Below are positions 1 through 11,896 of a stretch of 11,896 nucleotides of DNA, in pieces. Origin of the DNA: a virus (taxonomy: Duplodnaviria; Heunggongvirae; Uroviricota; Caudoviricetes); IMG/VR virus record IMGVR_UViG_3300039360_000021; one strand, given 5' to 3'. The notes below the pieces were generated by a model. It searched no databases. It was not told the DNA's origin and saw only the letters and a program-made list of their open reading frames with translations. The position numbers and the translations under genes were made by a program. The first letter of the stretch is position 1. Every line of letters begins with the position of its first letter.

Positions 1-1
1 A

Positions 2-292
2 GGCAAGGACTGGAATAATCAGCAGAACATCTATCACCGTTGGTTAAAAGGTGAAACGGAAGCGCAAAGGGAAAAAATTCAGAAACTGATCCCTGCAATT
101 CTGGCAATCCTTCCGCGCGAGCTGCGTCACCGACTCTGCATCTTCGATACCCTGGAACGCCGTGCATTACTGGCGGCGCAGGAAGCGTTAAGTACGGCAA
201 TTGATGCGCATGATGATGCAGTCCAGGCCGTTTACCGGAAAGCGCATTTCAGCGGCGGCGGGTCTTCCGACGATTCTGTCATTGTTCATTAA
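2..292 (+). CDS. ydaT: 3' end of a YdaT-like prophage protein (partial; start lies upstream of the window)
   Basis: Open frame from the window edge to TAA at 290-292, translating to ...GKDWNNQQNIYHRWLKGETEAQREKIQKLIPAILAILPRELRHRL...SDDSVIVH. Sits directly upstream of the ydaU-like gene, matching the Rac order ydaT-ydaU-ydaV-ydaW. The symbol is assigned by synteny, not by a confirmed sequence match. Confidence 0.5.
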   Translation, partial: GKDWNNQQNIYHRWLKGETEAQREKIQKLIPAILAILPRELRHRLCIFDTLERRALLAAQEALSTAIDAHDDAVQAVYRKAHFSGGGSSDDSVIVH

Positions 293-304
293 GCAAAAGT
301 TTCC

Positions 305-1162
305 ATGCTGTTTGTGCTTATTCTAAGCCACCGGGCAGCATCATACGGGGCAATTATGGCCGCATTACCATACATGCAACTGTACATAGCTGATTACCTG
401 GCTGACACCATGCATTTGTCAGCAGAGGAGCATGGCGCGTATTTGTTGCTGATGTTCAATTACTGGCAAACAGGAAAGCCAATACCCAAAAACAGGCTGG
501 CAAAAATTGCCCGTCTGACTAACGAGCGATGGGCTGATGTTGAACCATCCTTGCGGGAGTTTTTTTGCGATAACGGCGAGGAATGGGTACATCTTCGGAT
601 TGAGGAAGATCTGGCATCAGTCAGGGAAAAATTAACCAAAAAATCAGCCGCAGGAAAAGCATCTGTTCAGGCCAGAAGAAGCAGAAAGGAAGCAGATGTT
701 CAAACAAAACAAGAGAGAAATTTAACAGGTGTTCAAACAGATGTTGAAGTGGTGTTTGAACATGATGTCAACACAAAGGCAACTAATAAAGATACAGATA
801 AAGATCTAAAAACAGCTCCCCCCCTAAATCCCCCCCGGGGGAATCGAGGTGTCAAAAAGTTTGACCCTCTGGATATTGCTTTGCCGAACTGGATTTCTGT
901 CTCGCTTTGGCGTGAGTGGGTTGAATTTCGCCAGGCATTGCGTAAACCGATTCGAACGGAGCAGGGCGCTAACGGGGCGATACGGGAGCTGGAAAAATTC
1001 CGCCAGCAGGGTTTTTCACCTGAGCAGGTGATTCGACACAGCATCGCCAACGAATACCAGGGCTTGTTCGCGCCGAAAGGTGTTCGACCTGAGACGTTAC
1101 TCCGACGGGTTAACACCGTTTCGTTACCGGACAGTGCGATCCCGCCAGGCTTCAGGGGGTAA
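305..1162 (+). CDS. ydaU: Rac-type replication protein YdaU-like (DUF1376-like N-terminal region)
   Basis: 285-aa ORF; the N-terminal sequence MAALPYMQLYIADYLADTMHLSAEEHGAYLLLMFNYWQTGKPIPK is what I recall for Rac YdaU. The first ATG at 305 has no Shine-Dalgarno; the internal ATG at 356 (MAALPYM) has a weak GGGG upstream and may be the true start. Stop is 7 bp before the next gene. Confidence 0.8.
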   Translation: MLFVLILSHRAASYGAIMAALPYMQLYIADYLADTMHLSAEEHGAYLLLMFNYWQTGKPIPKNRLAKIARLTNERWADVEPSLREFFCDNGEEWVHLRIEEDLASVREKLTKKSAAGKASVQARRSRKEADVQTKQERNLTGVQTDVEVVFEHDVNTKATNKDTDKDLKTAPPLNPPRGNRGVKKFDPLDIALPNWISVSLWREWVEFRQALRKPIRTEQGANGAIRELEKFRQQGFSPEQVIRHSIANEYQGLFAPKGVRPETLLRRVNTVSLPDSAIPPGFRG

Positions 1163-1168
1163 CTGACC

Positions 1169-1915
1169 ATGAAAAATATTGCGACAGGCGGCGTTCTTGA
1201 ACGTATCCGCAGACTGGCCCCGTCACATGTAACCGCGCCATTCAAGACGGTAGCGGAGTGGCGTGAGTGGCAACTTTCCGAAGGCCAGAAACGTTGTGAG
1301 GAGATCAACCGTCAGAATCGTCAGTTGCGGGTGGAAAAAATTCTGAATCGCTCTGGCATCCAGCCATTGCACCGCAAATGCTCGTTTGCGAATTACCAGG
1401 TGCAGAACGACGGTCAGCGATATGCGTTGAACCAGGCGAAATCTATCGCTGATGAACTGATGACCGGGTGTACAAATTTTGCGTTCAGCGGAAAACCTGG
1501 TACCGGAAAAAACCATCTGGCGGCGGCTATCGGGAATCGCCTGCTGAAAGATGGCCAGACAGTGATTGTGGTTACCGTGGCTGATGTCATGAGTGCTCTA
1601 CACGCTAGCTATGACGACGGGCAATCAGGCGAAAAATTTTTGCGGGAACTGTGCCAAGTGGATCTGCTGGTTCTTGATGAAATTGGCATTCAGCGCGAGA
1701 CAAAAAACGAGCAGGTGGTGCTGCACCAGATTGTTGATCGCCGGACAGCGTCGATGCGCAGCGTGGGGATGCTGACAAACCTGAACTATGAGGCCATGAA
1801 AACATTGCTCGGCGAGAGGATTATGGATCGCATGACCATGAACGGCGGGCGATGGGTGAATTTTAACTGGGAGAGCTGGCGTCCGAATGTCGTCCAGCTA
1901 GGAATTGCGAAGTGA
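1169..1915 (+). CDS. ydaV: DnaC/IstB-like AAA+ helicase loader (YdaV-like replication protein)
   Basis: 248-aa ORF with Walker A ([10 protein letters not shown]) and Walker B (LLVLDEIG) motifs, tightly coupled downstream of the ydaU-like gene. Confidence 0.85.
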
Positions 1916-1937
1916 TTTTTACCGGGAGGAAATTTTA

Positions 1938-2699
1938 ATGGAAACCGTTTTTGATGCACTGAAAGCAATGGGAAAAGCCACGTCGGTAGAACTGGCTGCG
2001 CGACTTGATATCAGTCGTGAAGAAGTGCTGAACGAGCTGTGGGAACTGAAAAAGGCTGGATTCGTTGATAAAAGCGTATACACCTGGCGTGTGGCCGATA
2101 ACAACGTTCAGCAGGAACATCCAGTGCCGGAAGAACAGCCGGAAGAAATCGCCACAGCAACAGTGACGAAAATATCGGAGTGCGATTTAACCGCGACGAT
2201 TGAACAACGTGGTCCACTAACTGCGGATGAACTGGCTACGTTGTTCGGTACCACATCACGCAAAGTGGCTTCAACGCTGGCAATGGCAATCAGCAAGGGG
2301 CGTCTGATTCGCGTAAATCAGAACGGTAAATTTCGTTACTGCATGCCGGGCGATAATTTACCAGCAGAACCGAAAGCTGCATTGGTAACGAAAAATGATG
2401 GTAAAGCCTTTCCTCAGCCAGCCGGTGCTGCGTTACCAGTACAGGAAGCGGCAACACAGGAAGATATTAAAACAGAAACTGTGGCGGACATTGTGCAGTC
2501 GCTGCCATCGTTTACTGAAACGCAAGCGGATGACTTGGTTTTACCATCGCTGCATATAGCAAACCGCGAACTGCGTCGGGCGAAAAATCATGTCCAGAAG
2601 TGGGAGCGTGTCTGCGCCGCGCTGCGGGAGCTGAACAAGCACCGGGATATTGTTCGACAGATTGTCGATTCCTCCAGTCGTATTGTGTCGGAAAAGTGA
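1938..2699 (+). CDS. ydaW: YdaW-like prophage protein, full length, with a probable N-terminal winged-helix region
   Basis: ATG at 1938 preceded by GGGAGGAAA with about 5-nt spacing; the ORF track frame starts earlier at 1905 without an SD. Position after ydaV matches Rac synteny. The N-terminal segment ([29 protein letters not shown]) resembles a wHTH. Symbol is assigned by synteny. Confidence 0.6.
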
Positions 2700-2714
2700 T
2701 TGCCGGAGGCGCTT

Positions 2715-3137
2715 ATGGCAAAAGTTTTTACACAGGAAGAGCGTGAAAAAATTAAGGAGCAGGTTGTTGAGCTGGTACGCCAGAGTGGGCGCGAGACGTT
2801 AAGGCAACTGGAGGCCAAGACAGGGGCGACAAGATATCTGATGAGCATTCTTGCCAGAGAGTTGGTTGCCAGTGGCGATGTATACAACTCTGGCTATGGG
2901 TTATTTACCTCTGAACAGGCTCGTAAGGACTGGAATAACGCCCGCAAAAAACTATCCAGGGCAAAGGTGAAAAAAACGGTTGTGGTTGATCCTGACCTTA
3001 TCTGGTCATTACCAGACGGAGAAATACGCCGATATGACGGGCGTCTGAATATAATCTGTAGCGAGTGCCGTAAGAGCGAAGTTATGAAGCGTGTACTGAT
3101 GTTTTATCGAGGAAGTATCCAGGAATTTATTCGGTAA
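2715..3137 (+). CDS. hypothetical phage protein
   Basis: ATG at 2715 preceded by GGAGG (2706-2710); the ORF is in frame from 2700, immediately after the ydaW-like stop. Basic C-terminal half. No family recognised. Confidence 0.55.
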   Translation: MAKVFTQEEREKIKEQVVELVRQSGRETLRQLEAKTGATRYLMSILARELVASGDVYNSGYGLFTSEQARKDWNNARKKLSRAKVKKTVVVDPDLIWSLPDGEIRRYDGRLNIICSECRKSEVMKRVLMFYRGSIQEFIR

Positions 3138-3184
3138 GCAAAATCAAAATGTAATCGCTCAAGTTTAAGTTGGTGTATCTACGG

Positions 3185-3217
3185 CGCAGAGCCATCGCCT
3201 CATCTGGCACTGCGCTA
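3185..3217. other. imperfect GC-rich inverted repeat between the 145-aa gene and the convergent minus-strand ORF (possible bidirectional terminator)
   Basis: GCGCAGAGCCA ... TGGCACTGCGC, about 10-bp arms with one mismatch, lying between two convergent ORFs. No clean U-tract. Confidence 0.3.
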
Positions 3218-3273
3218 AAATCAAATTTAGTTCCACTCTTTATTTCGTATCTGCTAAAACGCTACATAAAATT

Positions 3274-3546
3274 TTACTTTTTTAAAGAATAAGGGAATAT
3301 GTGCACCATATTGGAGGCTAGTGGATATATTCCTATGCTACGAGTTGTCTTTTTTAGTTGATCTATGCTTGCTTCTTTATCGGGAGCCCGGCCTCCCCAC
3401 ACTGTAACTCCCTCAGGTATATCGATTGGGCGACTTTTGTTTTCATCTGTGATTTCAATCGTTTCCCCATTATTAAGCGTAATAATCAACGATGACACGT
3501 CCAGGTGTTGTGTATTCCCATTTTTATTTTTAATGTCTATTTTCAT
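3274..3546 (-). CDS. hypothetical small protein (90 aa) in the AT-rich cargo island
   Basis: Minus-strand ORF with plausible amino-acid composition but no obvious SD. Opposite orientation to the prophage backbone and in an AT-rich context. No family recognised. Confidence 0.4.
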   Translation of the reverse strand: MKIDIKNKNGNTQHLDVSSLIITLNNGETIEITDENKSRPIDIPEGVTVWGGRAPDKEASIDQLKKTTRSIGIYPLASNMVHIFPYSLKK

Positions 3547-3816
3547 GGCTATTTCATTATATGTTATCTGTGCTGGAGTAATAAGTTTACAGTATTAAGA
3601 AGCATTTTGACGAAACAATCAACTGACTTATCAGCTAAGGTGGCATTGTAATGCGATCTGATTGGTATCATCAGGACGCTGTTCAAAAAAGGGGGATTAG
3701 TTGATCTTGAAATCTTGCTCAAAATGTGTAGCCTCTCGTTTAACTGCCAACTTTTTGGGGCAGTACACTCTGATGCTACACAACTTGCAAGTTTCATTAC
3801 CCCGACGTAAACATTT

Positions 3817-4485
3817 ATGACAGTTGCTGATTTCAAACGTCCTAAGTTGGAGCTCCCAAACGGGGCAAACAAACTACTATTACACTCTTGTTGTGCACCA
3901 TGTTCCGGTGAAGTGATGGAGGCTCTTCAGGCCTCAGGAATCGACTACACCATCTTCTTCTATAATCCGAACATTCATCCTCAGAAAGAGTATTTGATTC
4001 GTAAGAATGAGAATATTCGATTTGCTGAACAACATGGTGTACCGTTTATCGATGCTGATTACGACACTGACAACTGGTTTGAGCGAGCCAAAGGAATGGA
4101 ATGGGAGCCCGAACGTGGGAGGCGTTGTACTATGTGTTTTGACATGCGTTTTGAACGGACGGCGCTGTACGCCGCTGAAAATGGTTTCAGTGTGATCAGC
4201 AGTTCACTGGGCATTTCACGCTGGAAAAATATGCAGCAGGTTAACGACAGCGGACGGCGAGCTGTCGCACATTATCCGGGCATGGTGTACTGGGATTATA
4301 ACTGGCGCAAGCAGGGAGGCTCGTCCCGCATGATTGAAATCAGCAAACGCGAACAATTCTATCAGCAGGAATATTGTGGTTGCGTGTATTCACTTCGCGA
4401 TACCAATTTACACCGCAAATCCCAGGGACGCCCTCTTATCAAAATTGGTCAACTCCACTACGGTAAAGAAGAAGGGCAGGAATGA
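3817..4485 (+). CDS. queH: QueH-like epoxyqueuosine reductase (DUF208 family), putative Fe-S enzyme
   Basis: 222-aa ORF with the N-terminal motif [12 protein letters not shown] that I recognise as the DUF208/QueH signature, plus further conserved Cys pairs ([14 protein letters not shown]) consistent with metal/Fe-S ligation. Weak SD. AT-rich codon usage unlike the flanking phage genes. Confidence 0.7.
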
Positions 4486-4794
4486 TTTTTACATTACGTC
4501 AACAGAGTGTCACAACGTTTCTATATATGGTATGCCGACCGTAATTTTCGAATCATCATGACTAATAGGCAGGTCACCTATGCCAGCAATGACCTGCTCA
4601 TCTTGAAATTAGCAGAAATCTTGTAGCTATGATGTAGCTCAAAATAGTTTTTCATTCTTTTACCTGATGTCTGTTCCTGGCTGAAAACAGACTGTATTAT
4701 TTGATTACGCACCACTGACACTTGTGTATTGAAGTAGTGAGTACAAAGCCACATATTTATCAGTGTATGTATACGTCAAAAACAGGAGATTGTT

Positions 4795-4884
4795 GTGCTG
4801 GTTCTGAAGTGTGCGTTAGCAATAGTGGCTGTGGTGGCAATTTATTGCCTTGTTGTTGTTCTTATGGAGCGACTTTCTGATTGA
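4795..4884 (+). CDS. candidate small hydrophobic membrane peptide (29 aa)
   Basis: GTG start at 4795 preceded by AGGAG (4784-4788) with 6-nt spacing. Translation MLVLKCALAIVAVVAIYCLVVVLMERLSD is one predicted transmembrane helix plus a short acidic tail. Below the ORF-track size cutoff. Confidence 0.35.
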   Translation: MLVLKCALAIVAVVAIYCLVVVLMERLSD

Positions 4885-5029
4885 TTACATACTGGCTAAA
4901 AAAAAGCGTTTGCCTGGCTTATCTTTGTCCGGCAAGGTGCGCTCATTAATCTGAAGTAAATTTATTTCTTAAGTATTCAGATTACTTCTTATGGTCGAAG
5001 TCTCCTGGCAATGTAGAACCAAAATATTT

Positions 5030-5069
5030 ACAAAAACGAGACCCGTCGAGGATAGCTCTGCCGGGTCTG
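5030..5069 (-). terminator. rho-independent terminator downstream of the YeaR-like gene
   Basis: Perfect 7-bp stem AGACCCG (5039-5045) / CGGGTCT (5062-5068) with a long loop. On the minus strand the hairpin is followed by CGTTTTTGT. It lies about 30 bp past the stop of the minus-strand gene. Confidence 0.5.
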
Positions 5070-5097
5070 ATTGTTAAAGTATTTTTAATATGATCAT

Positions 5098-5436
5098 CTA
5101 TTTTTTGGTGCTATAGACTTTTTCGCCTGAGAAGTCTGGAGCGACCCAAAAGTTAATATTAAACTGAGCATCATCGCTTAGTTCAACACGGTGCCAGTAT
5201 TGTGGTGGGCTTGTTGCAAAAGAGCCAGCATTAATAACTACTTTTATCTCTGGTTCAGTAGTATTCTCATCAGCAAAACCATAATATGTTACAGTGCCTT
5301 CCATTACGCACAACTGCCCAAAAACACCTGCTGCTGTATTATGATGTGTTAATAACGCTGAAGGTACGTTCTCTTTTGTGAAGAACGGAGTTGAGCGTTT
5401 GATTACCCAATCTTTAGGAATTCTCTTGTGTGTCAT
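5098..5436 (-). CDS. DUF1971 family protein, YeaR-like
   Basis: Translation MTHKRIPKDWVIKRSTPFFTKENVPSALLTHHNTAAGVFGQLCVMEGTVTYYGFADE... resembles E. coli YeaR as I recall it. ATG at 5436 is preceded by TAGGAGGTGG with 5-nt spacing; the ORF track begins two codons earlier at a GTG. Confidence 0.8.
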   Translation of the reverse strand: MTHKRIPKDWVIKRSTPFFTKENVPSALLTHHNTAAGVFGQLCVMEGTVTYYGFADENTTEPEIKVVINAGSFATSPPQYWHRVELSDDAQFNINFWVAPDFSGEKVYSTKK

Positions 5437-5451
5437 AACCACCTCCTATAA

Positions 5452-5474
5452 AACATGTATTATAAATGCACCTT
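5452..5474 (-). promoter_or_regulatory. candidate NsrR-type operator (11-1-11 inverted repeat) upstream of the YeaR-like gene
   Basis: AACATGTATTA-T-AAATGCACCTT compared with the NsrR consensus as I recall it (AAGATGCATTT-N-AAATGCATCTT); the right half differs at one position and the left half at about three. On the minus strand a perfect TTGACA (+ strand 5486-5491) and perfect TATAAT (+ strand 5459-5464) flank it, but 21 bp apart, so the promoter geometry is non-canonical. Confidence 0.35.
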
Positions 5475-6307
5475 TTGAGGAGTTATGTCAAGCTCTTATG
5501 AAACACATAATTGATATGTTGATTAGAGGAGAAGATAGAATAAATATGGTTGTTTTTCGTATAACTACTTGTTTTGCTTTTGGTTTATGCATTCTGTGTG
5601 TTAGGAATAAGTTATTAAAGCTTAATCAAGAAATCTCGATGTATTCCACATAGATTACTGTTACTGAACCTTATTGTGTGCATTAGTTGTGTTCTGAAAT
5701 TTCAGCTTAATTATTTATGATATATTTTTTAACGATAAATATTTTCCCAGGTAAAAGACAGTTGGGAATAAGATAAGTAATATATCATTAATCTTGATTA
5801 TTCCCAGGGTACCTTTACTGTGCATATAAATAAATCATATATGCATCAAATAATGTAAAGGCATCCTTTTAGATATGTCTTATCAAATGTTAATGACTTG
5901 AGTGGGAAACATGATTCCAGCAACTTATCATGTGGCTACTTTATAAAAATAATGCCCATATAAAACAACAAGCGAAAAGGATTACGGATAAAAAAGGAGC
6001 GAGATGTGCAAACTTGTTATTTTCCATGTTTAACCACCTTAAATAATTGATGATGACGGGATGATTGCATCTGTAATGCTTTTATTGAAATGTTATGATA
6101 AAAAAGAACTTTTTCATAACATTAAAATGTAATTTAGCTAATCGTTTTTAATAATAAGTGTCGTATTTCTATCCTTGTACCAGCTATTTGATATGTAGTG
6201 TTTGTTCATGCTATGTGGGGCTTTACACCATAGCCAGTTTATTTATACTTTATTCGTCAGCCTGAACAACTGGCATCTGCTGCACTGCGCCATAGAGAGA
6301 TTGAGAA

Positions 6308-6907
6308 ATGGCGCATATACAACTGGTCAAACAAACTTCTTCTGGTTTACTTCTCCCGGCGACGCCGGAGAGTTGTGATTTTCTGCATCAAATTAAAATA
6401 GGCGAGTGGATACACGCTGATTTTAAGCGTGTGCGTAACTACGCATTCCACAAGCGTTTTTTCAAACTCCTGCAACTGGGATTCGATTACTGGACTCCGG
6501 TCGGTGGGGCGATCACGCCTCGCGAACGAGAACTGCTGTCTGGTTTCGTTGATTACCTGTGCGAATCAGTTGGTCGGGAACACACGCCAGCCCTGAGTGA
6601 TGCCGCAGAGCAATATCTGAATACAGTTGCGACACGCAGAACCCGGGATACGGCATTGCTAAAGTCGTTTGAGGCTTTTCGCGAGTGGGTAACCATTCAG
6701 GCTGGATTTTACACCGAACATTTTTATCCGGACGGTAGCCATGGGCGTCGGGCGAAATCCATAGCTTTTGCGAATATGGACGAAACCGAGTTTCAGCAGG
6801 TTTATAAATCTGTTCTGAATGTGCTGTGGAACTGGATTCTGTTCCGTAAATTTTCCTCTCTGGAACAAGTCGAAAATGTGGCCGCGCAGCTGCTGGAGTT
6901 TGCGTAA
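6308..6907 (+). CDS. lambdoid nin-region protein (possibly DUF1367 family)
   Basis: 199-aa ORF whose TAA stop overlaps the next ATG (TAATG at 6905-6909), indicating translational coupling. It is the first backbone gene after the AT-rich island. The family assignment is from memory and uncertain. Confidence 0.65.
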   Translation: MAHIQLVKQTSSGLLLPATPESCDFLHQIKIGEWIHADFKRVRNYAFHKRFFKLLQLGFDYWTPVGGAITPRERELLSGFVDYLCESVGREHTPALSDAAEQYLNTVATRRTRDTALLKSFEAFREWVTIQAGFYTEHFYPDGSHGRRAKSIAFANMDETEFQQVYKSVLNVLWNWILFRKFSSLEQVENVAAQLLEFA

Positions 6908-7197
6908 TGGTGGATTTACGTAAAGCGGCGCGGGGGCAGATGTGCACCGTCAGAATTCCTGGCTACTGCAATCACGATCCGGAAACGTCTGTGCTGGCGC
7001 ATTACCGACTGGCGGGAACGTGCGGAACAGCGACAAAACCACACGATATGCAGGCGGCGATTGCCGGTAGCTCATGCCACGATCTAATCGACGGGCGGGT
7101 AAAAACCAGCGATTACACCAAAGAAGAATTACGCCTGATGCATGCAGAAGGTGTTTTTCGCACACAAGAAATCTGGAGAAAGGAGGGATATTTGTGA
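6907..7197 (+). CDS. YbcO-like DUF1364 protein (putative Cys/His-rich nuclease of the nin region)
   Basis: 96-aa ORF beginning MVDLRKAARGQMCTVRIPGYCNHDPETSVLAHYRLAGTCGTATKPHD..., which resembles DLP12 YbcO as I recall it. Conserved Cys/His spacing. Its stop overlaps the next start (GTGA at 7194-7197). Confidence 0.7.
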   Translation: MVDLRKAARGQMCTVRIPGYCNHDPETSVLAHYRLAGTCGTATKPHDMQAAIAGSSCHDLIDGRVKTSDYTKEELRLMHAEGVFRTQEIWRKEGYL

Positions 7198-7811
7198 TTT
7201 ACCCAACGAATACAGGAAAAAGCGGAGAACACCTTCGTCTCGCCACGCTGGAAAGTGTCTGGATTCAGGGCAAACTGCGTATGTGGGGGCGCTGGTCGTA
7301 TATTGGCGGTGGCAGGTCAGGAAATATGTTCAATCAGTTGTTGGCATCCAAAAAATTGACGAAAACAGCCATCAATGAAGCCCTGCGCAGAATGAAAAAA
7401 GCGGGAATAGAGAAAGCTGAGCTGGAAGCGTTTTTGAGAGAGATGATCAACGGCAAGCAAAAGAGCTGGCTGGCGCATTGTACTGATGCAGAGGCGTTAT
7501 GTATTGATCGAGTCATAAGTGAGGTGCTGGCAGAGCATCCAGGATTGATTAGCGTCCTTCGGCAACGGTATGAGGGNNNNNNNNNNNNNNNNNNNNNNNN
7601 NNNNNNNNNNNNNNNNNNCCAGAGTGGTGTTTTAGCACATGCGAAAAGCGAATTGCTAATTGGTTGGCCGTTGCTGAGTATGCGCTATACATTCCCATGC
7701 GAGAATCATTCGCTCAAAAAACGGCTTGATTTTTTACGCATAAACTGCTTCAATTTTGCTACGCTTCGCAAAGCTGTATCGCGTGGCGAATCAGGCGCAA
7801 TTAAACTTTAA
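7194..7811 (+). CDS. late-gene antiterminator Q-like protein (interrupted by an N-run; extent uncertain)
   Basis: GTG at 7194 preceded by AGGAGGG (7181-7187); the ORF track frame starts earlier at 7074. It is the last backbone gene before the tRNA/lysis region. The N-terminal part (LRMWGRWSY...) loosely resembles the small Q family. The frame stays open across the 42-nt N-run (a multiple of 3) to TAA at 7809-7811, but if the true protein is the short type it ends inside the gap. Confidence 0.45.
   Translation: MIYPTNTGKSGEHLRLATLESVWIQGKLRMWGRWSYIGGGRSGNMFNQLLASKKLTKTAINEALRRMKKAGIEKAELEAFLREMINGKQKSWLAHCTDAEALCIDRVISEVLAEHPGLISVLRQRYEXXXXXXXXXXXXXXXQSGVLAHAKSELLIGWPLLSMRYTFPCENHSLKKRLDFLRINCFNFATLRKAVSRGESGAIKL
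7577..7618. other. run of 42 N (assembly gap or masked bases)
   Basis: Directly visible in the sequence; lies inside the Q-like reading frame. Confidence 1.
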
Positions 7812-7816
7812 TAGAA

Positions 7817-7836
7817 CCCGCATCGAGCGGGTTTTG
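7817..7836 (+). terminator. hairpin plus T-tract; probably the IS200 left-end internal terminator (alternatively a phage terminator after Q)
   Basis: Stem CCCGC (7817-7821) / GCGGG (7827-7831), loop ATCGA, then TTTTGTTGT. Begins 6 bp after the Q-frame stop. Confidence 0.45.
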
Positions 7837-7913
7837 TTGTGCACAGAAAACCCCCAGCTAGGCTGGGGGTTCCGGAAAGCTTTCAGCTTTGAGCCAGTTA
7901 TTAAAACCCCTTT

Positions 7914-7935
7914 NNNNNNNNNNNNNNNNNNNNNN
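7914..7935. other. run of 22 N (assembly gap or masked bases) within the IS200 left end
   Basis: Directly visible in the sequence. Confidence 1.
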
Positions 7936-7981
7936 GTCTGGCAACTGCAAGTGTCAAACAAGAAATCAAAAGGGGGTCCCA

Positions 7982-8440
7982 ATGGGGGACGAAAAGAGCT
8001 TAGCGCACACCCGCTGGAACTGTAAATATCACATAGTTTTTGCGCCGAAATACCGAAGACTGGCGTTTTACGGAGAGAAGCGTAGGGCGATAGGCAGTAT
8101 TTTGAGAAAGCTGTGTGAGTGGAAAAGCGTACGGATTCTGGAAGCAGAGTGCTGCGCAGATCATATCCATATGCTTGTGGAAATCCCACCCAAAATGAGC
8201 GTATCCGGCTTTATGGGATATCTGAAAGGGAAAAGCAGTCTGATGCTTTACGAGCAGTTTGGGGATTTGAAATTCAAATACAGAAACAGGGAGTTCTGGT
8301 GCCGAGGGTACTATGTCGATACGGTGGGTAAGAACACGGCGAAGATACAGGACTACATAAAGCACCAGCTTGAAGAGGATAAAATGGGGGAGCAGTTATC
8401 GATTCCATATCCGGGCGGCCCGTTTACGGGCCGTAAGTAA
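7982..8440 (+). CDS. tnpA: IS200 transposase TnpA (Y1/HuH single-strand transposase)
   Basis: ATG at 7982 with AAGGGGG upstream. Translation MGDEKSLAHTRWNCKYHIVFAPKYRR...HIHMLVEIPPK...WCRGYYVDTVGKNT... carries the HuH motif (HIH) and the catalytic Tyr region. Confidence 0.9.
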   Translation: MGDEKSLAHTRWNCKYHIVFAPKYRRLAFYGEKRRAIGSILRKLCEWKSVRILEAECCADHIHMLVEIPPKMSVSGFMGYLKGKSSLMLYEQFGDLKFKYRNREFWCRGYYVDTVGKNTAKIQDYIKHQLEEDKMGEQLSIPYPGGPFTGRK

Positions 8441-8521
8441 CGAAGTTGAATGCAAATGTCAGATCGTATGCGCCTGTTAGGGCGCGGCTGGTAACAGAGC
8501 CTTACAGGCGCATTTGAAAAA

Positions 8522-8556
8522 CCTCCGGCTATGCCGGAGGATATTTATTGTTTTTG
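8522..8556 (+). terminator. strong rho-independent terminator just right of IS200
   Basis: Perfect 8-bp stem CCTCCGGC (8522-8529) / GCCGGAGG (8533-8540) with loop TAT, followed by ATATTTATTGTTTTTG. It could instead be part of the IS200 right end. Confidence 0.5.
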
Positions 8557-8701
8557 TGGTGTGATATAAGAAACGACATTTAATAATTGCCTTCAAAATA
8601 AATTTGTTTATATATTGTCGCGTATATTTTAAATGAAGGTGAAATGTTCACATAAAATAAAAATACATAAATAAATTTACATAATTTGACGCAAAGTGTT
8701 G

Positions 8702-8729
8702 TTGCGATTGGAATATTAAATCGTATTAT
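8702..8729 (+). promoter_or_regulatory. candidate sigma70 promoter for the tRNA pair (possibly the late promoter region)
   Basis: TTGCGA (8702-8707), 16-bp spacer, TATTAT (8724-8729), with a very AT-rich upstream tract (about 8560-8700) resembling an UP element; about 60 bp upstream of the first tRNA. Read by eye only. Confidence 0.3.
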
Positions 8730-8792
8730 CGAAAACGGTTCTGAGGGGGAACTCTTCTTTGATCGGTGATATCGCTCCCCTGAAGAACCAAT

Positions 8793-8867
<75 letters not shown>

Positions 8868-8870
8868 TAT

Positions 8871-8945
<75 letters not shown>

Positions 8946-9308
8946 GCATTTGAAACAAGCCTTATTGTATTGCGGCACTGGCGTATTTTTTATTACGTGG
9001 GAGCAGGTTGTTTTGGAAAAGCATTCTGTTCTCTGGCTATAATTTGAGGCCAGGTGTAGCCTCAGTGCTGATTTTTTTACGACAGCAGAATGGTGCATTA
9101 TCGGTGGAGATTTTGTATTTCCTGGCAGGGTCGGTGATGCATCATTCTGGTGTTGTAAAAGCACCACAGAGGTGTTCCTCAGTGCGAGGGTGGTTTATAT
9201 AGTGGTTTAGCGGGGAATCACAATATTTGTTGTAGGGACAGATATTTCGGGAGGCACCCGACACCTCGATTTTTATTACAATTAAAATGATTTATCTTAT
9301 ACATTGAC

Positions 9309-9336
9309 CAACCGCCATATCTGGCGGTTTTTTTTA
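9309..9336 (+). terminator. rho-independent terminator between the tRNAs and the lysis genes (tR'-like)
   Basis: Stem ACCGCCA (9311-9317) / TGGCGGT (9322-9328), loop TATC, followed by a T-run (about 8 T). Confidence 0.6.
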
Positions 9337-9723
9337 TACCTGCATCAGACAAAAAAAGACACGAGCATCCAGGAATCCTCGTGGGACAACGTCCTTTAGA
9401 TAGCAATTTGCGAGAGGGTGAAAAGTAGCGCGGTCGTCGGATTAAGACCGCGGGACAAAGTCCATGAAGAATAATAAGTATTGGCCCCCTTCTGGGGACA
9501 TGTCCATACTACTAAGCTTCAGAAGTGGTTTAAATCATCAAATTAACCTTAATTTTCGATAAGTCTTATTTCATTTCTTTGCGCCACATCTGGCGCGCAT
9601 CAAATAACGCCACGCAAAGGGCATCTGCGGATGCCGGTGCTTTTGACGGGGTGTTTTTTACGGGCCGCTGGTGGCCATTTTTTGTTTCCGTTACACAGCG
9701 CCCGCATCTGCGAGGTGGGAGTT

Positions 9724-9939
9724 ATGAAATCCATGGATAAGTTAACAACGGGTGTCGCCTATGGCACCTCCGCAGGCAGTGCTGGCTACTGGTTTTTACA
9801 GTTGCTCGATAGAGTAACTCCGTCACAGTGGGCTGCAATCGGTGTGCTGGGTAGTCTGGTATTTGGCCTGCTGACGTACCTGACAAACCTTTATTTCAAG
9901 ATTAAAGAAGATAAGCGCAAGGCTGCACGGGGAGAGTAA
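9724..9939 (+). CDS. S: phage-21-type pinholin with dual-start motif (antiholin from Met1, holin from Met4)
   Basis: ATG at 9724 preceded by GAGGTGGGAG. Translation [71 protein letters not shown] resembles S21 as I recall it, with two TM segments and a basic C-terminus. Second in-frame ATG at 9733. The ORF track extends upstream to 9631 with no support. Confidence 0.85.
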
Positions 9940-9943
9940 TTCA

Positions 9944-10288
9944 ATGACTCAAAACTATGAAGTGATTATGAAAGGGATCCGCAATTTTGAGAATAAAGTT
10001 ACGGTAACTTTAGCGTTACGGGACAAAAAACGCTTTGACGGTGAAATTTTTGACCTGGACATCTCGCTGGACCGTGTTGAAGGTGCCGCGCTGGAGTTTT
10101 ATGAGGCAGCAGCCAGAAGGAGCATCAGACAGGTCTTCCTGGATGTTGCTGCCGGGTTATGTGAAGGGGATGGGCAGTCGCCGGAAAAGCGCCCCGTAAT
10201 TTTAGATGCGCAGAATGTGTGGATAACCTACAAAGGAAAGCTACCAGGAAGAATTACTAATTCTCTGAAGACTCCACCGAAATGGTAA
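9944..10288 (+). CDS. hypothetical protein inserted between holin and endolysin (114 aa)
   Basis: ATG 4 bp after the holin stop, preceded by GGGGAGAG, so probably co-transcribed with the late operon. No family recognised; it may correspond to small proteins found at this position in some E. coli prophages. Confidence 0.55.
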   Translation: MTQNYEVIMKGIRNFENKVTVTLALRDKKRFDGEIFDLDISLDRVEGAALEFYEAAARRSIRQVFLDVAAGLCEGDGQSPEKRPVILDAQNVWITYKGKLPGRITNSLKTPPKW

Positions 10289-10526
10289 TTTTACCAGCAT
10301 ATTTTTCTTCCAGTAATGCCGCCAGCCACTTGAAAGAATTTTGTTGTTCCTGGGACCATTTGGGGTTGCGTGATTCAAGCAAGAGCGATGCATGTGTTGG
10401 TTGCATTTGTTCTCTGGGAATTGATAAGGCCAGATATGAAAATGCAACAGTGAGGGCATTTACATCATCCCGAAGCTTGGAAATGCAGTCGAGCAACTCC
10501 TGTAGAGAAATGGTGTTATTGTCCAT
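10257..10526 (-). CDS. hypothetical protein (89 aa) convergent with, and overlapping by 32 bp, the 114-aa gene
   Basis: Minus-strand ORF with protein-like composition (MDNNTISLQELLDCISKLRDDVNALTVAFSYLALS...) and AGAGGA just upstream of its ATG. The overlapping plus-strand ORF 10282..10566 looks non-protein-like (Ser/Cys-rich). Confidence 0.4.
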   Translation of the reverse strand: MDNNTISLQELLDCISKLRDDVNALTVAFSYLALSIPREQMQPTHASLLLESRNPKWSQEQQNSFKWLAALLEEKYAGKITISVESSEN

Positions 10527-10631
10527 AAATAATCCTCTTGATTGTCTTTACCTTTTCCCCGCCTGATTCAACAGGCCGGGACAGATAAACATATCCAGGG
10601 TTCAGAAACCGATAAATCCTGATAAATATCC

Positions 10632-11165
10632 ATGAACGCAAAAATCAGATACGGCCTGTCGGCTGCCGTTCTGGCACTGATTGCCGTCGGTGCGCCTGCG
10701 CCTGATATTCTCGACCAGTTTCTGGATGAAAAAGAAGGTAACCACACAACGGCATACCGCGATGGTTCCGGCATCTGGACCATCTGTCGGGGTGCCACGG
10801 TGGTGGATGGAAAACCCGTTTTTCCCGGTATGAAACTGTCGAAGGAAAAATGCGACCAGGTTAACGCCATTGAACGGGATAAGGCGCTGGTATGGGTGGA
10901 GCGCAATATTAAAGTGCCACTGACCGAACCACAGAAAGCGGGTATAGCGTCATTTTGTCCCTATAACATTGGCCCCGGTAAGTGTTTCCCGTCGACGTTT
11001 TATAAGCGGATGAATGCTGGTGATCGTAAAGGTGCATGCGAGGCGATTCGCTGGTGGATTAAGGACGGTGGCCGTGATTGCCGCATTCGTTCAAATAACT
11101 GTTACGGTCAGGTTATTCGTCGTGACCAGGAAAGCGCATTAGCCTGTTGGGGAATAGATCAGTGA
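10632..11165 (+). CDS. R: SAR endolysin, T4-lysozyme-like (glycoside hydrolase family 24)
   Basis: N-terminal weakly hydrophobic Ala/Gly-rich segment ([15 protein letters not shown]) typical of a signal-anchor-release domain. Catalytic triad spacing E-x8-D-x5-T is present ([16 protein letters not shown]). Weak SD. Confidence 0.9.
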
Positions 11166-11629
11166 GCAGAGTCGCCGCGATTATTTATGCTCTGGTTATC
11201 TGCACTATCGTCTGCCTGTCGTGGGCGGTCAATCATTACCGTGATAACGCCATCGCCTACAAAGAACAACGTGATAAAAAAGTCAGTGAGCTGAAGCAGG
11301 CGATCGCCACCATCGCTGACATGCAGCAGCGTCAGCGTGATGTTGCTGCGCTCGATGCAAAGTACTCGAGAGAATTAGCCAATGCGAAAGCTGAAAATGA
11401 AACTCTGCGCGCTGATGTTGCCGCTGGTCGTAAGCGCCTGCGGGTCAATGCCAGTTGCTCCGCAGCCGTGCGTGAAGCCACCGGCCCCACCAGCGTGGAT
11501 AATGCAACCATCCCCCGACTGGCAGACACCGCTGAACGGGATTATTTCACCCTCAGAGACCGATTGATGACGATGCAGAAGCAACTGGAAGGGGCACAGC
11601 TATACATTCGTGAGCAATGCCTCAGATAA
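11162..11629 (+). CDS. Rz-like i-spanin (inner-membrane spanin subunit)
   Basis: GTG at 11162 overlapping the endolysin stop (GTGA); the ORF track frame begins at a TTG at 11147. N-terminal TM segment ([19 protein letters not shown]) then a coiled-coil-like region; resembles lambda Rz as I recall it. Corresponds by position to the rzpR remnant of K-12 Rac. Confidence 0.85.
11382..11567 (+). CDS. Rz1-like o-spanin lipoprotein, embedded in the +1 frame of Rz
   Basis: Translation [27 protein letters not shown]...[24 protein letters not shown] has a lipobox (LVVSAC) and a proline-rich mature region, and lies entirely inside the Rz gene in another frame. Confidence 0.8.
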
Positions 11630-11896
11630 AAACCGGCCAAGGATAATCCGCTGAAGATTTGCCGGCGGCGAAAGAGAGCCAAGGGTTCAGCCTACGCCAT
11701 TACTCCTGTCGATGCAATGCATTCAATGGATGCTTGATTTATTTCTGTGCGCTATATCGTCGCTGTCTCCTGCATTAACTATGACCGTAACTTGACGGGG
11801 AACCCCTTCTGCGTGAGTTTGCGGGAATAATCAAAAACGATGCACACCGGGTTTTACTGTGCTGACAGACGCAGGGTTACCCTCATAGTCGCTTTT

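What the first reader, a model, noticed from the sequence alone, without database searches (positions are those of the whole stretch)
7577..8560. IS200 inserted at the Q / late-promoter junction, flanked by N-runs
A complete IS200-type Y1 transposase with upstream hairpins lies immediately after the stop of the Q-like frame and before the AT-rich promoter region that drives the tRNAs and probably the late operon. The element is in the same orientation as late transcription and carries its own terminator hairpins, so it could alter the Q C-terminus or expression, or uncouple Q from its promoter-proximal target site. Either would affect whether the prophage can still lyse. The two N-runs (7577-7618 and 7914-7935) sit exactly at this junction, as expected where a multi-copy IS breaks an assembly, so the local sequence and even the adjacency are uncertain.
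Basis: partly seen in the sequence, partly recalled or inferred. Interest (0 to 1): 0.5.

Follow-up and report, generated by a model that had tools for sequence, protein, structure and literature searches.

The report
IS200 copy behind a prophage terminator
An ordinary, intact IS200 insertion sequence has recently jumped into the T-run of the terminator that follows the late promoter of a Rac-like E. coli prophage; it misses the Q gene and its loading site, so it is a routine mobile-element insertion and probably does not disable the prophage.

Summary
The IS200 is real. It is a 711-bp insert (7839-8549) with an intact Y1/HUH transposase gene (7982-8440), and it matches another copy in E. coli strain 746 at every unmasked base compared.

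Apart from this insert and the two N-runs, the window equals the same prophage in strain 746 base for base. Both IS/prophage junctions lie inside uninterrupted sequence, and the two flanks abut exactly in the empty site. The insertion is therefore not a scaffolding artefact.

- **N-runs.** Neither is at a junction. Run 1 (7577-7618) lies inside Q and stands for 49 nt, not 42. This created a false Q frame ending at 7811; the true stop is 7727-7729. Run 2 lies 75 nt inside the IS.
- **Distance from Q.** The IS sits 109 nt after the Q stop.
- **Position relative to the late promoter.** The IS lies downstream of a conserved promoter / pause-like element / terminator cassette (7726-7838). This cassette, not the AT-rich region, is the likely late promoter.

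IS200 landed here because it targets intrinsic terminators: 84 of 117 left flanks from other genomes carry one, against 1.2% of controls. Q-modified polymerase should read through the IS. This is a known element behaving in a known way, so interest is low.

The parts
7194..7729 (+). Q-like antiterminator gene (DUF1133, distant Q21-family relative). It is interrupted in the record by N-run 1. True stop is TGA at 7727-7729.
   Evidence: The homolog in L001 is 180 aa: Pfam DUF1133 357 bits, PF06530 (Q21 family) 27.4 bits against a cutoff of 26. Window 7619-7729 encodes the conserved C-terminus PEWCFST...AQKTA*.
7577..7618 (.). N-run 1: 42 N inside the Q gene, standing for 49 nt in the closest relatives. 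Its length is therefore not true.
   Evidence: L001 has GCGGGGGATGACC...GATGCACAC (49 nt) here. L002 also has 7 more bases than the window.
7726..7765 (+). Putative late promoter (PR'-like). -35 TTGATT at 7726-7731 overlaps the Q stop; 17-nt spacer; -10 TTCAAT at 7749-7754; -10-like TACGCT at 7760-7765 (candidate sigma-dependent pause element).
   Evidence: Conserved in 80 IMG/VR relatives, Rac-SA53 and Providencia PSTCR8lys. Matches the cassette layout described in PMC9388147. Inferred, not mapped. The simple promoter scan did not call it.
7815..7838 (+). Intrinsic terminator (tR'-like): AACCCGC-ATCGA-GCGGGTT plus T-run TTTTGTT. The last five bases, TTGTT, are the IS200 target.
   Evidence: RNA fold of 7761-7845 gives -29.4 kcal/mol with a 13-pair hairpin. 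A terminator at this position occurs in all relatives, in several alleles.
7839..8549 (+). IS200 element, 711 bp, no target duplication.
   Evidence: Empty site in L001 reads GGGTTTTGTT|GTTTTTGTGG. Identity to another copy in E. coli 746 runs over 7837-8549 and stops there.
7849..7871 (+). IS200 left-end hairpin, the element's own bidirectional terminator.
   Evidence: Fold -18.7 kcal/mol. Described for Salmonella IS200 as nts 12-34 (PMC4513863).
7849..7972 (+). tnpA 5'UTR / STnc490 (art200) region, including the stem-loop that hides the ribosome-binding site.
   Evidence: Rfam RF01405, 73.9 bits against 56, full length 1-124. Fold of the unmasked AF40 copy gives z = -5.6.
7914..7935 (.). N-run 2: 22 N inside the IS200 5'UTR. 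Length is true (22 nt in other copies: TGATTTGTTAAAACACCTTGCG).
7982..8440 (+). tnpA, Y1 HUH transposase, 152 aa, intact. HUH motif = HIH in ADHIHML; catalytic Tyr in QDYIKHQ.
8522..8549 (+). IS200 right-end hairpin CCTCCGGC-TAT-GCCGGAGG plus ATATTTATT. It resembles a terminator followed by the TTNTT target.
   Evidence: The tandem copy in L096 starts directly after it.
8550..8792 (+). AT-rich spacer with promoter-like sites (8587-8616, 8702-8729), probably the tRNA genes' own promoters.
   Evidence: Consensus matches only.
8793..8945 (+). tRNA-Thr(TGT) 8793-8867 and tRNA-Gly(TCC) 8871-8945.

Best explanation
The window is a Rac-like lambdoid prophage of E. coli. One intact IS200 copy (7839-8549, 711 bp) has recently transposed into it.

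**Why this site.** The IS did not target Q. It inserted 3' of TTGTT in the T-run of the intrinsic terminator that closes the short leader of the Q-dependent late cassette. IS200-group elements insert on single-stranded DNA just after a terminator-type hairpin plus TTNTT. That structure resembles their own right end.

**Order of features on the + strand.**
1. Q gene, stop at 7729.
2. PR'-like promoter, 7726-7754.
3. -10-like pause element, 7760-7765.
4. Terminator, 7815-7838.
5. IS200, 7839-8549.
6. AT-rich spacer.
7. tRNA-Thr and tRNA-Gly.
8. Holin, lysozyme and Rz genes.

**Consequences.** Q, its loading site and the first 9 nt of the terminator's T-tract are unchanged. Late transcripts now have to cross 711 extra bases and two more hairpins. 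Q-modified RNA polymerase, which ignores terminators over kilobases, should cross them.

**N-runs.** They are defects or masks of the record: one inside Q and one inside the IS. They do not affect the adjacency.

**Shown versus inferred.**
- Shown: identity and ends of the IS, the empty site, the integrity of tnpA, the terminator-targeting rule, and the conservation of the cassette.
- Inferred: that the cassette is the active late promoter, and that read-through is sufficient for lysis.
For: **Empty site and flanks.**
- Window 1-7576 and 7619-7840 are 100% identical to L001 (E. coli 746).
- Window 8544-11896 has one mismatch, and it lies inside the IS end. So there are no other differences in about 11.1 kb.
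- The junction sequences fit a 711-bp insert with no duplication.

**IS identity.**
- It matches the ydcH-rimL copy in strain 746 at every unmasked base over 7837-8549, and strain 746 has 13 copies.
- Transposase family hits and motifs are intact.
- Rfam STnc490 matches at full length.

**Target rule.**
- 84 of 117 distinct left flanks of IS200-group copies from many species carry a strict hairpin plus T-run ending 10-21 nt before the left-end hairpin. Random 60-mers do so in 41 of 3497 cases (1.2%).
- The five bases before the IS are T-T-N-T-T in 115, 106, -, 107 and 101 of 117 flanks.
- The right end finishes in TTATT after a hairpin.
- In L096 a second copy abuts the right end of the first.
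- A different IS200 variant (about 95% DNA identity, 96% TnpA identity) sits at the same nucleotide in a 91%-identical prophage of E. coli AF40.
- PMC13548323 reports terminator-like sequences just upstream of IS200/IS605 elements.

**Late cassette.**
- The -35, spacer, -10 and -10-like elements and the GCTTCGCAAAGCTGTATCGCG block are conserved.
- They are followed by variable terminator alleles and then at least 10 unrelated downstream modules.
- This matches the published layout Q gene - PR' - pause element - terminator, and the statement that the Q-loaded complex ignores terminators over thousands of bp (PMC9388147).

**Strand.**
- GC skew is +0.06 to +0.16 across the window.
- The strain 746 record starts at oriC, next to mnmG.
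- Together these place the IS top strand on the lagging-strand template, as expected for this family. This is an inference.
Against: - The promoter is not experimentally mapped. Its -10 (TTCAAT) lacks the usual A at position 2, and the consensus scan did not list it.
- The Q assignment rests on DUF1133 plus a borderline PF06530 hit (27.4 against 26 bits) and on gene position. There is no significant match to the solved Q21 structure by sequence (E=0.86).
- Antitermination is not 100% efficient at every terminator. The IS200 left-end hairpin is a documented strong terminator, so some drop in late expression is possible.
- The 49 nt hidden by N-run 1 are unknown. A true 7-nt deletion would frameshift Q.
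- The enrichment at terminators could partly reflect survival of harmless insertions rather than targeting alone.
Confidence: 0.8

Rival explanations
1. The IS200 is polar. Its left-end and right-end terminators, plus the 711 bp of extra distance, cut late transcription enough to make the prophage lysis-defective or slow to lyse. This is the functional core of the reader's idea.
For: IS200 was discovered as a polar insertion, and its left-end hairpin is a bidirectional terminator (PMC4513863). Both hairpins are stable. The insertion lies inside the late transcription unit.
Against: Q-loaded polymerase ignores terminators over thousands of bp (PMC9388147). The same unit already contains tR' and a further terminator-like site at 9310-9329 that must be read through. 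The Q gene and its loading region are untouched.
Confidence: 0.2
2. The late promoter is in the AT-rich region 8550-8790, so the IS lies between Q and its promoter.
For: Two promoter-like sites at 8587-8616 and 8702-8729, in very AT-rich DNA directly upstream of the tRNAs.
Against: This region is present in only some relatives of this Q; at least 10 other modules follow the terminator. The block just after the Q stop travels with Q out to a Providencia phage whose Q is 43% identical. The number of promoter-like sites found (5) is not above the shuffled expectation (3.8 +/- 1.9). Even if this rival were true, Q acts in trans, so 711 bp more distance would not uncouple it.
Confidence: 0.1
3. Q is a pseudogene in this strain. 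N-run 1 has its true length of 42, meaning a 7-nt deletion that frameshifts the last third of Q. The prophage would then be defective for a reason unrelated to IS200.
For: 42 N against 49 nt in L001, with L002 also 7 nt longer than the window there. N-run 2 does keep its true length.
Against: All other 11.1 kb are identical to L001. All 80 relatives have the full 180-aa gene. Estimated gap lengths in scaffolds are commonly off by a few bases.
Confidence: 0.07
4. The IS200 was placed here by scaffolding of a repeat contig and is really at another locus.
For: Two N-runs lie nearby. N-run 2 lies where short-read contigs typically break inside IS200. The IS has about 13 copies in related strains.
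Against: The block 7619-7913 contains prophage DNA running into the IS left end. The block 7936-11896 contains the IS right end running into prophage DNA. The two prophage flanks abut to the base in the empty site. A misplaced repeat contig could not produce both junctions.
Confidence: 0.03

Closest known systems
IS200 of Salmonella/E. coli (IS200 group of the IS200/IS605 family; IS1541 in Yersinia)
   Same: - Single tnpA encoding a Y1 HUH transposase.
- About 710 bp, with no inverted terminal repeats.
- Left-end terminator hairpin at nts 11-33.
- 5'UTR stem-loop with the STnc490/art200 region.
- Right-end hairpin.
- No target duplication.
- Identical at every unmasked base compared to copies already present in complete E. 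coli genomes.
   Different: Nothing of substance. This copy measures 711 bp, against the 707 bp quoted for the Salmonella element. Only its location is new: the left junction occurs in 1 of 5426 complete E. coli genomes (a different IS variant), and the right junction in none.
Q-dependent late regulatory cassette of lambdoid phages (Q gene - PR' - sigma-dependent pause element - terminator; lambda 6S RNA/tR')
   Same: Same order and spacing. The promoter follows Q directly, with a -10-like element a few bases after the -10. The leader is about 78 nt long and ends in an intrinsic terminator. Variable cargo and lysis genes follow.
   Different: The Q here is a DUF1133 protein with only a borderline match to the Q21 family (PF06530). 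No element of the cassette has been mapped experimentally for this family.
IS608 / ISDra2 (IS200/IS605 family members with a solved mechanism)
   Same: The transposase is homologous: E=3e-19 to IS608 TnpA 2a6m and 5e-16 to the transposase chain 2xm3_A, which I take from memory to be ISDra2 TnpA. Both have subterminal hairpins, insert 3' of a short specific sequence without duplication, and have an orientation consistent with the lagging-strand template.
   Different: The target here is TTNTT in the T-run of a terminator hairpin, rather than TTAC (IS608) or TTGAT (ISDra2). There is no tnpB.

Membership tests
IS200/IS605 family, IS200 group | Encodes a Y1 (HUH) transposase of the IS200 type | tested here: met
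   Pfam Y1_Tnp E=7.9e-37 over the full domain. NCBIfam transpos_IS200 equivalog 144.4 bits against a cutoff of 55. PDB relatives 2ec2 and 2a6m.
IS200/IS605 family, IS200 group | HUH motif and catalytic tyrosine present; frame uninterrupted | tested here: met
   ADHIHMLVE and QDYIKHQ align with DHIHLFV and KKYIEEQ of 2ec2. The ORF is 152 codons with no stop.
IS200/IS605 family, IS200 group | Subterminal hairpins at both ends instead of terminal inverted repeats | tested here: met
   Left-end hairpin 7849-7871 (-18.7 kcal/mol) and right-end hairpin 8522-8540. The two termini, GTGCACAGAA... and ...ATATTTATT, are not inverted copies of each other (read directly).
IS200/IS605 family, IS200 group | Insertion without target-site duplication, 3' of a short specific sequence | tested here: met
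   Empty site GGGTTTTGTT|GTTTTTG against the filled site. TTNTT precedes the IS in most of 117 independent flanks.
IS200/IS605 family, IS200 group | IS200-specific 5'UTR RNA element (STnc490/art200 region) | tested here: met
   Rfam RF01405 73.9 bits against a gathering score of 56, model positions 1-124, despite 22 masked bases.
IS200/IS605 family, IS200 group | Able to transpose | not testable with these tools
   Indirect only: the flanks have zero divergence from the empty site, and the IS is identical at every unmasked base to another copy. Both argue for a recent event.
Lambdoid Q-dependent late cassette | Gene for a Q antiterminator of a recognised Q family | tested here: inconclusive
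   DUF1133 357 bits. PF06530 (Q21 family per PMC9388147) 27.4 bits against a cutoff of 26. No significant sequence match to Q21 chain 6p18_P (E=0.86). Called Q by HHpred in PMC8136144.
Lambdoid Q-dependent late cassette | Promoter directly after Q with a sigma-dependent pause element in the initial transcribed region | tested here: inconclusive
   TTGATT-17-TTCAAT and the -10-like TACGCT/TATGCT are conserved with Q. The consensus scan did not list this promoter, and there is no transcript mapping.
Lambdoid Q-dependent late cassette | Intrinsic terminator closing a short leader, followed by late genes | tested here: met
   Hairpin plus T-run at 7815-7838. Present in every relative in several alleles. 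Holin, lysozyme and Rz genes lie downstream.
Assembly gap caused by a multi-copy IS | N-run at the IS/unique-DNA boundary, with the junctions themselves unsequenced | tested here: not met
   Both junctions lie in uninterrupted sequence. Run 1 is in Q. Run 2 is 75 nt inside the IS, although that depth is typical for contig breaks in IS200.

The most novel reading that the evidence does not exclude
IS200-group elements recognise intrinsic terminators as such: a hairpin plus a TTNTT T-run on the lagging-strand template, which mimics their own right end. If so, the tR' terminator of Q-dependent prophage late cassettes is a recurrent landing pad. Two different IS200 variants sit at the same nucleotide in two prophages. 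Such insertions could tune basal or Q-dependent read-through into lysis and cargo genes.
Probability: 0.3. Interest if true: 0.35.

Novelty: already known. Interest (0 to 1): 0.15.

Why it matters
It matters little beyond annotating this strain. The record should be read as an intact Rac-like prophage plus one recent IS200 copy, not as a prophage with a damaged Q or a doubtful join.

Two points are useful for annotation:
- An N-run of untrue length can create a false reading frame. Here it moved the apparent Q stop by 82 nt.
- The likely late promoter of DUF1133-type Q prophages overlaps the Q stop codon.

The strong terminator-targeting of IS200 seen in the side analysis (72% of flanks against 1.2% of controls) agrees with a 2026 survey. 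It explains why this IS so often lands in harmless places.

Tried and rejected
- **Source strain or the same insertion elsewhere.** Exact junction patterns gave 0 hits in IMG/VR. Junction queries against 5426 complete E. coli genomes found only AF40 for the left junction and nothing for the right. Looking up the YbcO-like protein returned only IS-free arrangements.
- **Q structure.** I therefore could not test fold similarity to Q21.
- **Literature on the IS200 target.** Odaert 1998 and Siguier 2014 are not held. One search had a syntax error. Other searches returned only general papers.
- **Alternative IS ends.** I considered 7841-8551, with target TTGT. I rejected this because the strain 746 copy ends at ...TATT and is followed by unrelated DNA, and because the tandem copy in L096 begins with GT directly after ...TATT.
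- **Deliberate exact-length masks.** This fits run 2 (22 of 22 nt) but not run 1 (42 against 49 nt). I cannot decide between a mask and an estimated scaffold gap, and the conclusion does not depend on it.
Full report
**What the window is.** The 11.9-kb window is part of a Rac-like lambdoid prophage of E. coli. The gene order is ydaU, ydaV, DUF1627, DUF977, queH, DUF1367, a YbcO-type nuclease, a DUF1133 'Q' protein, two tRNA genes, the EssD holin, a lysozyme and Rz. Many complete E. coli genomes carry the same prophage without any IS. The best of these, strain 746 (locus L001), is 100% identical to window 1-7576 and 7619-7840. It has one mismatch over 8544-11896, and that mismatch falls inside the end of the IS. 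So the window equals an IS-free relative plus one insert, with no other visible difference in about 11.1 kb.

**The insert.** Comparison of filled and empty sites gives the following.
- Empty site: ...GAGCGGGTTTTGTT|GTTTTTGTGGTG...
- Filled site: ...GAGCGGGTTTTGTT[GTGCACAGAAAACCCCC...GGAGGATATTTATT]GTTTTTGTGGTG...

The inserted DNA is 711 bp and there is no target duplication. Taken alone, this comparison leaves a 4-bp ambiguity in the ends. Another copy in strain 746, between ydcH and rimL, resolves it. That copy matches the window at every unmasked base over 7837-8549 and then diverges at once. In locus L096 a second IS200 starts with GT directly after ...ATATTTATT of the first. The element is therefore 7839-8549.

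The element has all the IS200 features:
- tnpA at 7982-8440, 152 aa. Pfam Y1_Tnp E=7.9e-37; NCBIfam transpos_IS200 144 bits against a cutoff of 55. The HUH motif (HIH) and the catalytic Tyr are intact.
- The left-end terminator hairpin at 7849-7871.
- The 5'UTR/STnc490 region at 7849-7972, Rfam 73.9 bits against a gathering score of 56.
- A right-end hairpin at 8522-8540.

These match the published anatomy of IS200 (PMC4513863). Related strains carry about 13 copies.

**The N-runs.** They are at the stated coordinates, but neither is at a junction.
- Run 1 (7577-7618) lies inside the Q gene. It replaces 49 nt in L001, and L002 also has 7 more bases than the window across this stretch. Its length of 42 is therefore not true.
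- Reading 42 N as 14 codons joins the N-terminal Q frame to a wrong frame that happens to stay open to 7811 (ORF 7074-7811).
- The sequence after the run encodes the conserved Q C-terminus (PEWCFSTCEKRIANWLAVAEYALYIPMRESFAQKTA*) in another frame. The stop is at 7727-7729, so Q ends 109 nt before the IS.
- Run 2 (7914-7935) lies 75 nt inside the IS, in the 5' arm of the 5'UTR stem-loop. It has the true length of 22 nt.

Run 2 starts 65 nt after the start of the left-end hairpin. In draft genomes, 72 of 121 IS200 copies end a contig 30-149 nt after that point. Run 2 may well be a residual assembly break caused by the repeat.

The adjacency is nevertheless secure. The block 7619-7913 reads from prophage DNA into the IS left end. 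The block 7936-11896 reads from the IS right end into prophage DNA. The two prophage flanks abut to the base in the empty site.

**Why the IS is here.** I collected 120 loci from other genomes that contain the IS200 left-end hairpin and read their left flanks.
- Nearly all show a GC-rich hairpin followed by a T-run immediately before the IS.
- With a strict definition (perfect stem of at least 5 bp, loop of 3-8, at least 5 T in 8), 84 of 117 distinct flanks qualify. Random 60-mers from the same loci qualify in 41 of 3497 cases, or 1.2%.
- The hairpin ends at a fixed distance, 10-21 nt before the left-end hairpin.
- The five bases before the IS are T, T, any, T, T in 115, 106, -, 107 and 101 of 117 flanks.
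- The IS's own right end is a hairpin followed by ...TTATT, so it resembles the target.

A 2026 survey also reports terminator-like sequences just upstream of IS200/IS605 elements as the strongest such signal among IS families (PMC13548323). In the window the target is TTGTT (7834-7838), in the T-run of the hairpin AACCCGC-ATCGA-GCGGGTT.

A different IS200 variant sits at exactly the same nucleotide in a 91%-identical prophage of E. coli AF40, which has different downstream DNA. That variant is named IS200C by PGAP. It has about 95% DNA identity and 96% TnpA identity to the window copy. The empty form of the AF40 site is seen in IMG/VR. This indicates two independent hits on one hot spot.

Otherwise the insertion is rare:
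- 0 of 80 IMG/VR relatives have it.
- The left junction occurs in 1 of 5426 complete E. coli genomes, and the right junction in none.
- There are no exact junction matches in IMG/VR.

GC skew is positive throughout the window. The strain 746 record starts at oriC, next to mnmG. Together these place the IS top strand on the lagging-strand template, which is the known preference of this family. This step is an inference.

**What the terminator belongs to.** The published Q cassette is: Q gene, PR' promoter, sigma-dependent pause element, terminator, late genes (PMC9388147). The window has the following directly at the Q stop:
- TTGATT at 7726-7731, which contains the TGA stop.
- A 17-nt spacer, TTTTACGCATAAACTGC.
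- TTCAAT at 7749-7754.
- A -10-like TACGCT at 7760-7765.
- A conserved stretch, GCTTCGCAAAGCTGTATCGCG.
- The terminator at 7815-7838.

In 80 IMG/VR relatives this block is almost invariant up to about 7790. After that come several different terminator alleles, and then at least 10 unrelated downstream modules. The block is still recognisable in two more distant phages:
- Rac-SA53, Q 76% identical: TTGATT-17-TATCTT, then TAAGAT.
- Providencia phage PSTCR8lys, Q 43% identical: TTGACT-16-TATAGT, then TATGCT and GAAGCTGTAC.

An element that stays with Q while everything after the terminator is exchanged is what a PR'/Q-loading region should look like. I therefore place the late promoter upstream of the IS. 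The AT-rich region 8550-8790 is one cargo module among many. Its promoter-like sites (not above the shuffled expectation) probably serve the tRNA genes.

Three caveats apply:
- The promoter is not mapped.
- Its -10 is weak, and the simple scan did not call it.
- The Q assignment rests on DUF1133, a borderline PF06530 hit (27.4 against 26 bits), an HHpred call in the literature (PMC8136144) and gene position. Sequence similarity to solved Q21 is not significant.

**Consequences.** The Q coding sequence, the presumed promoter and loading site, the terminator stem and the first 9 nt after it (TTTTGTTGT) are all unchanged, because the IS begins with the same GT as the displaced flank. Without Q, transcripts stop at tR' as before. 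With Q, polymerase must pass the IS200 left-end terminator, 711 bp and the right-end hairpin. It then passes the terminator-like site at 9310-9329, which it already had to read through. Q-loaded complexes ignore terminators over thousands of bp. I therefore expect little or no loss of late expression and put a polar, lysis-reducing effect at about 0.2. The lysis genes themselves are identical to those of the IS-free relative.

**Verdict.** The IS200 is real, intact and co-oriented with the late genes. It is not at the Q stop, it does not separate Q from its target, and the join is not in doubt. This is a known element, identical to copies elsewhere, inserted by its usual rule at a typical site. 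Novelty is 'already known' and interest is low (0.15). The most novel reading left open is that tR' terminators of prophage late cassettes are recurrent IS200 landing pads with a regulatory effect. I give that a probability of about 0.3 and modest interest if true.

Noticed in passing
L002 5089-5547 (E. coli AF40, IS200C tnpA): The IS200C transposase at the same prophage site reads ADYIHML where the window copy reads ADHIHML. The first histidine of the HUH motif is a tyrosine, so that copy may be catalytically dead.
   Followed up: no
L096, two matches on the - strand (offsets 2156 and 2867 of the reverse-complemented locus): Two IS200 copies lie in direct tandem. The second starts (GTCTATGG...) immediately after ...GGAGGATATTTATT of the first. 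This shows that the IS right end itself serves as a target.
   Followed up: partly
L003-L122 (120 loci from genome contigs): 72 of 121 IS200 copies in draft genomes end the record 30-149 nt after the start of the left-end hairpin. This is the usual signature of a repeat breaking a short-read assembly.
   Followed up: yes
window 7839 onward; L126-L205 about 2140 onward: The base after the tR'-like terminator is a mosaic joint. Relatives with nearly identical Q and leader carry at least 10 unrelated downstream modules. In Rac-SA53 the module includes a pertussis-like toxin operon, eplBA.
   Followed up: partly
window 3817-4485 (+) and 5098-5442 (-): The prophage carries an epoxyqueuosine reductase gene (queH) and a DUF1971/TehB-like gene in a low-GC stretch (GC about 0.39-0.42). 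It also carries tRNA-Thr(TGT) and tRNA-Gly(TCC). Together these form a small set of tRNA-related cargo.
   Followed up: no
window 7074-7811 (+): A spurious 245-codon ORF is produced by reading 42 N as 14 codons. After the run, the wrong frame stays open by chance for 64 codons, across the promoter and leader.
   Followed up: yes
H35, E. coli SW07164 (NZ_CM129849.1), same prophage region: Another strain has an IS1 family transposase annotated within the matching Q-to-tRNA stretch, so other IS types also land in this region.
   Followed up: no
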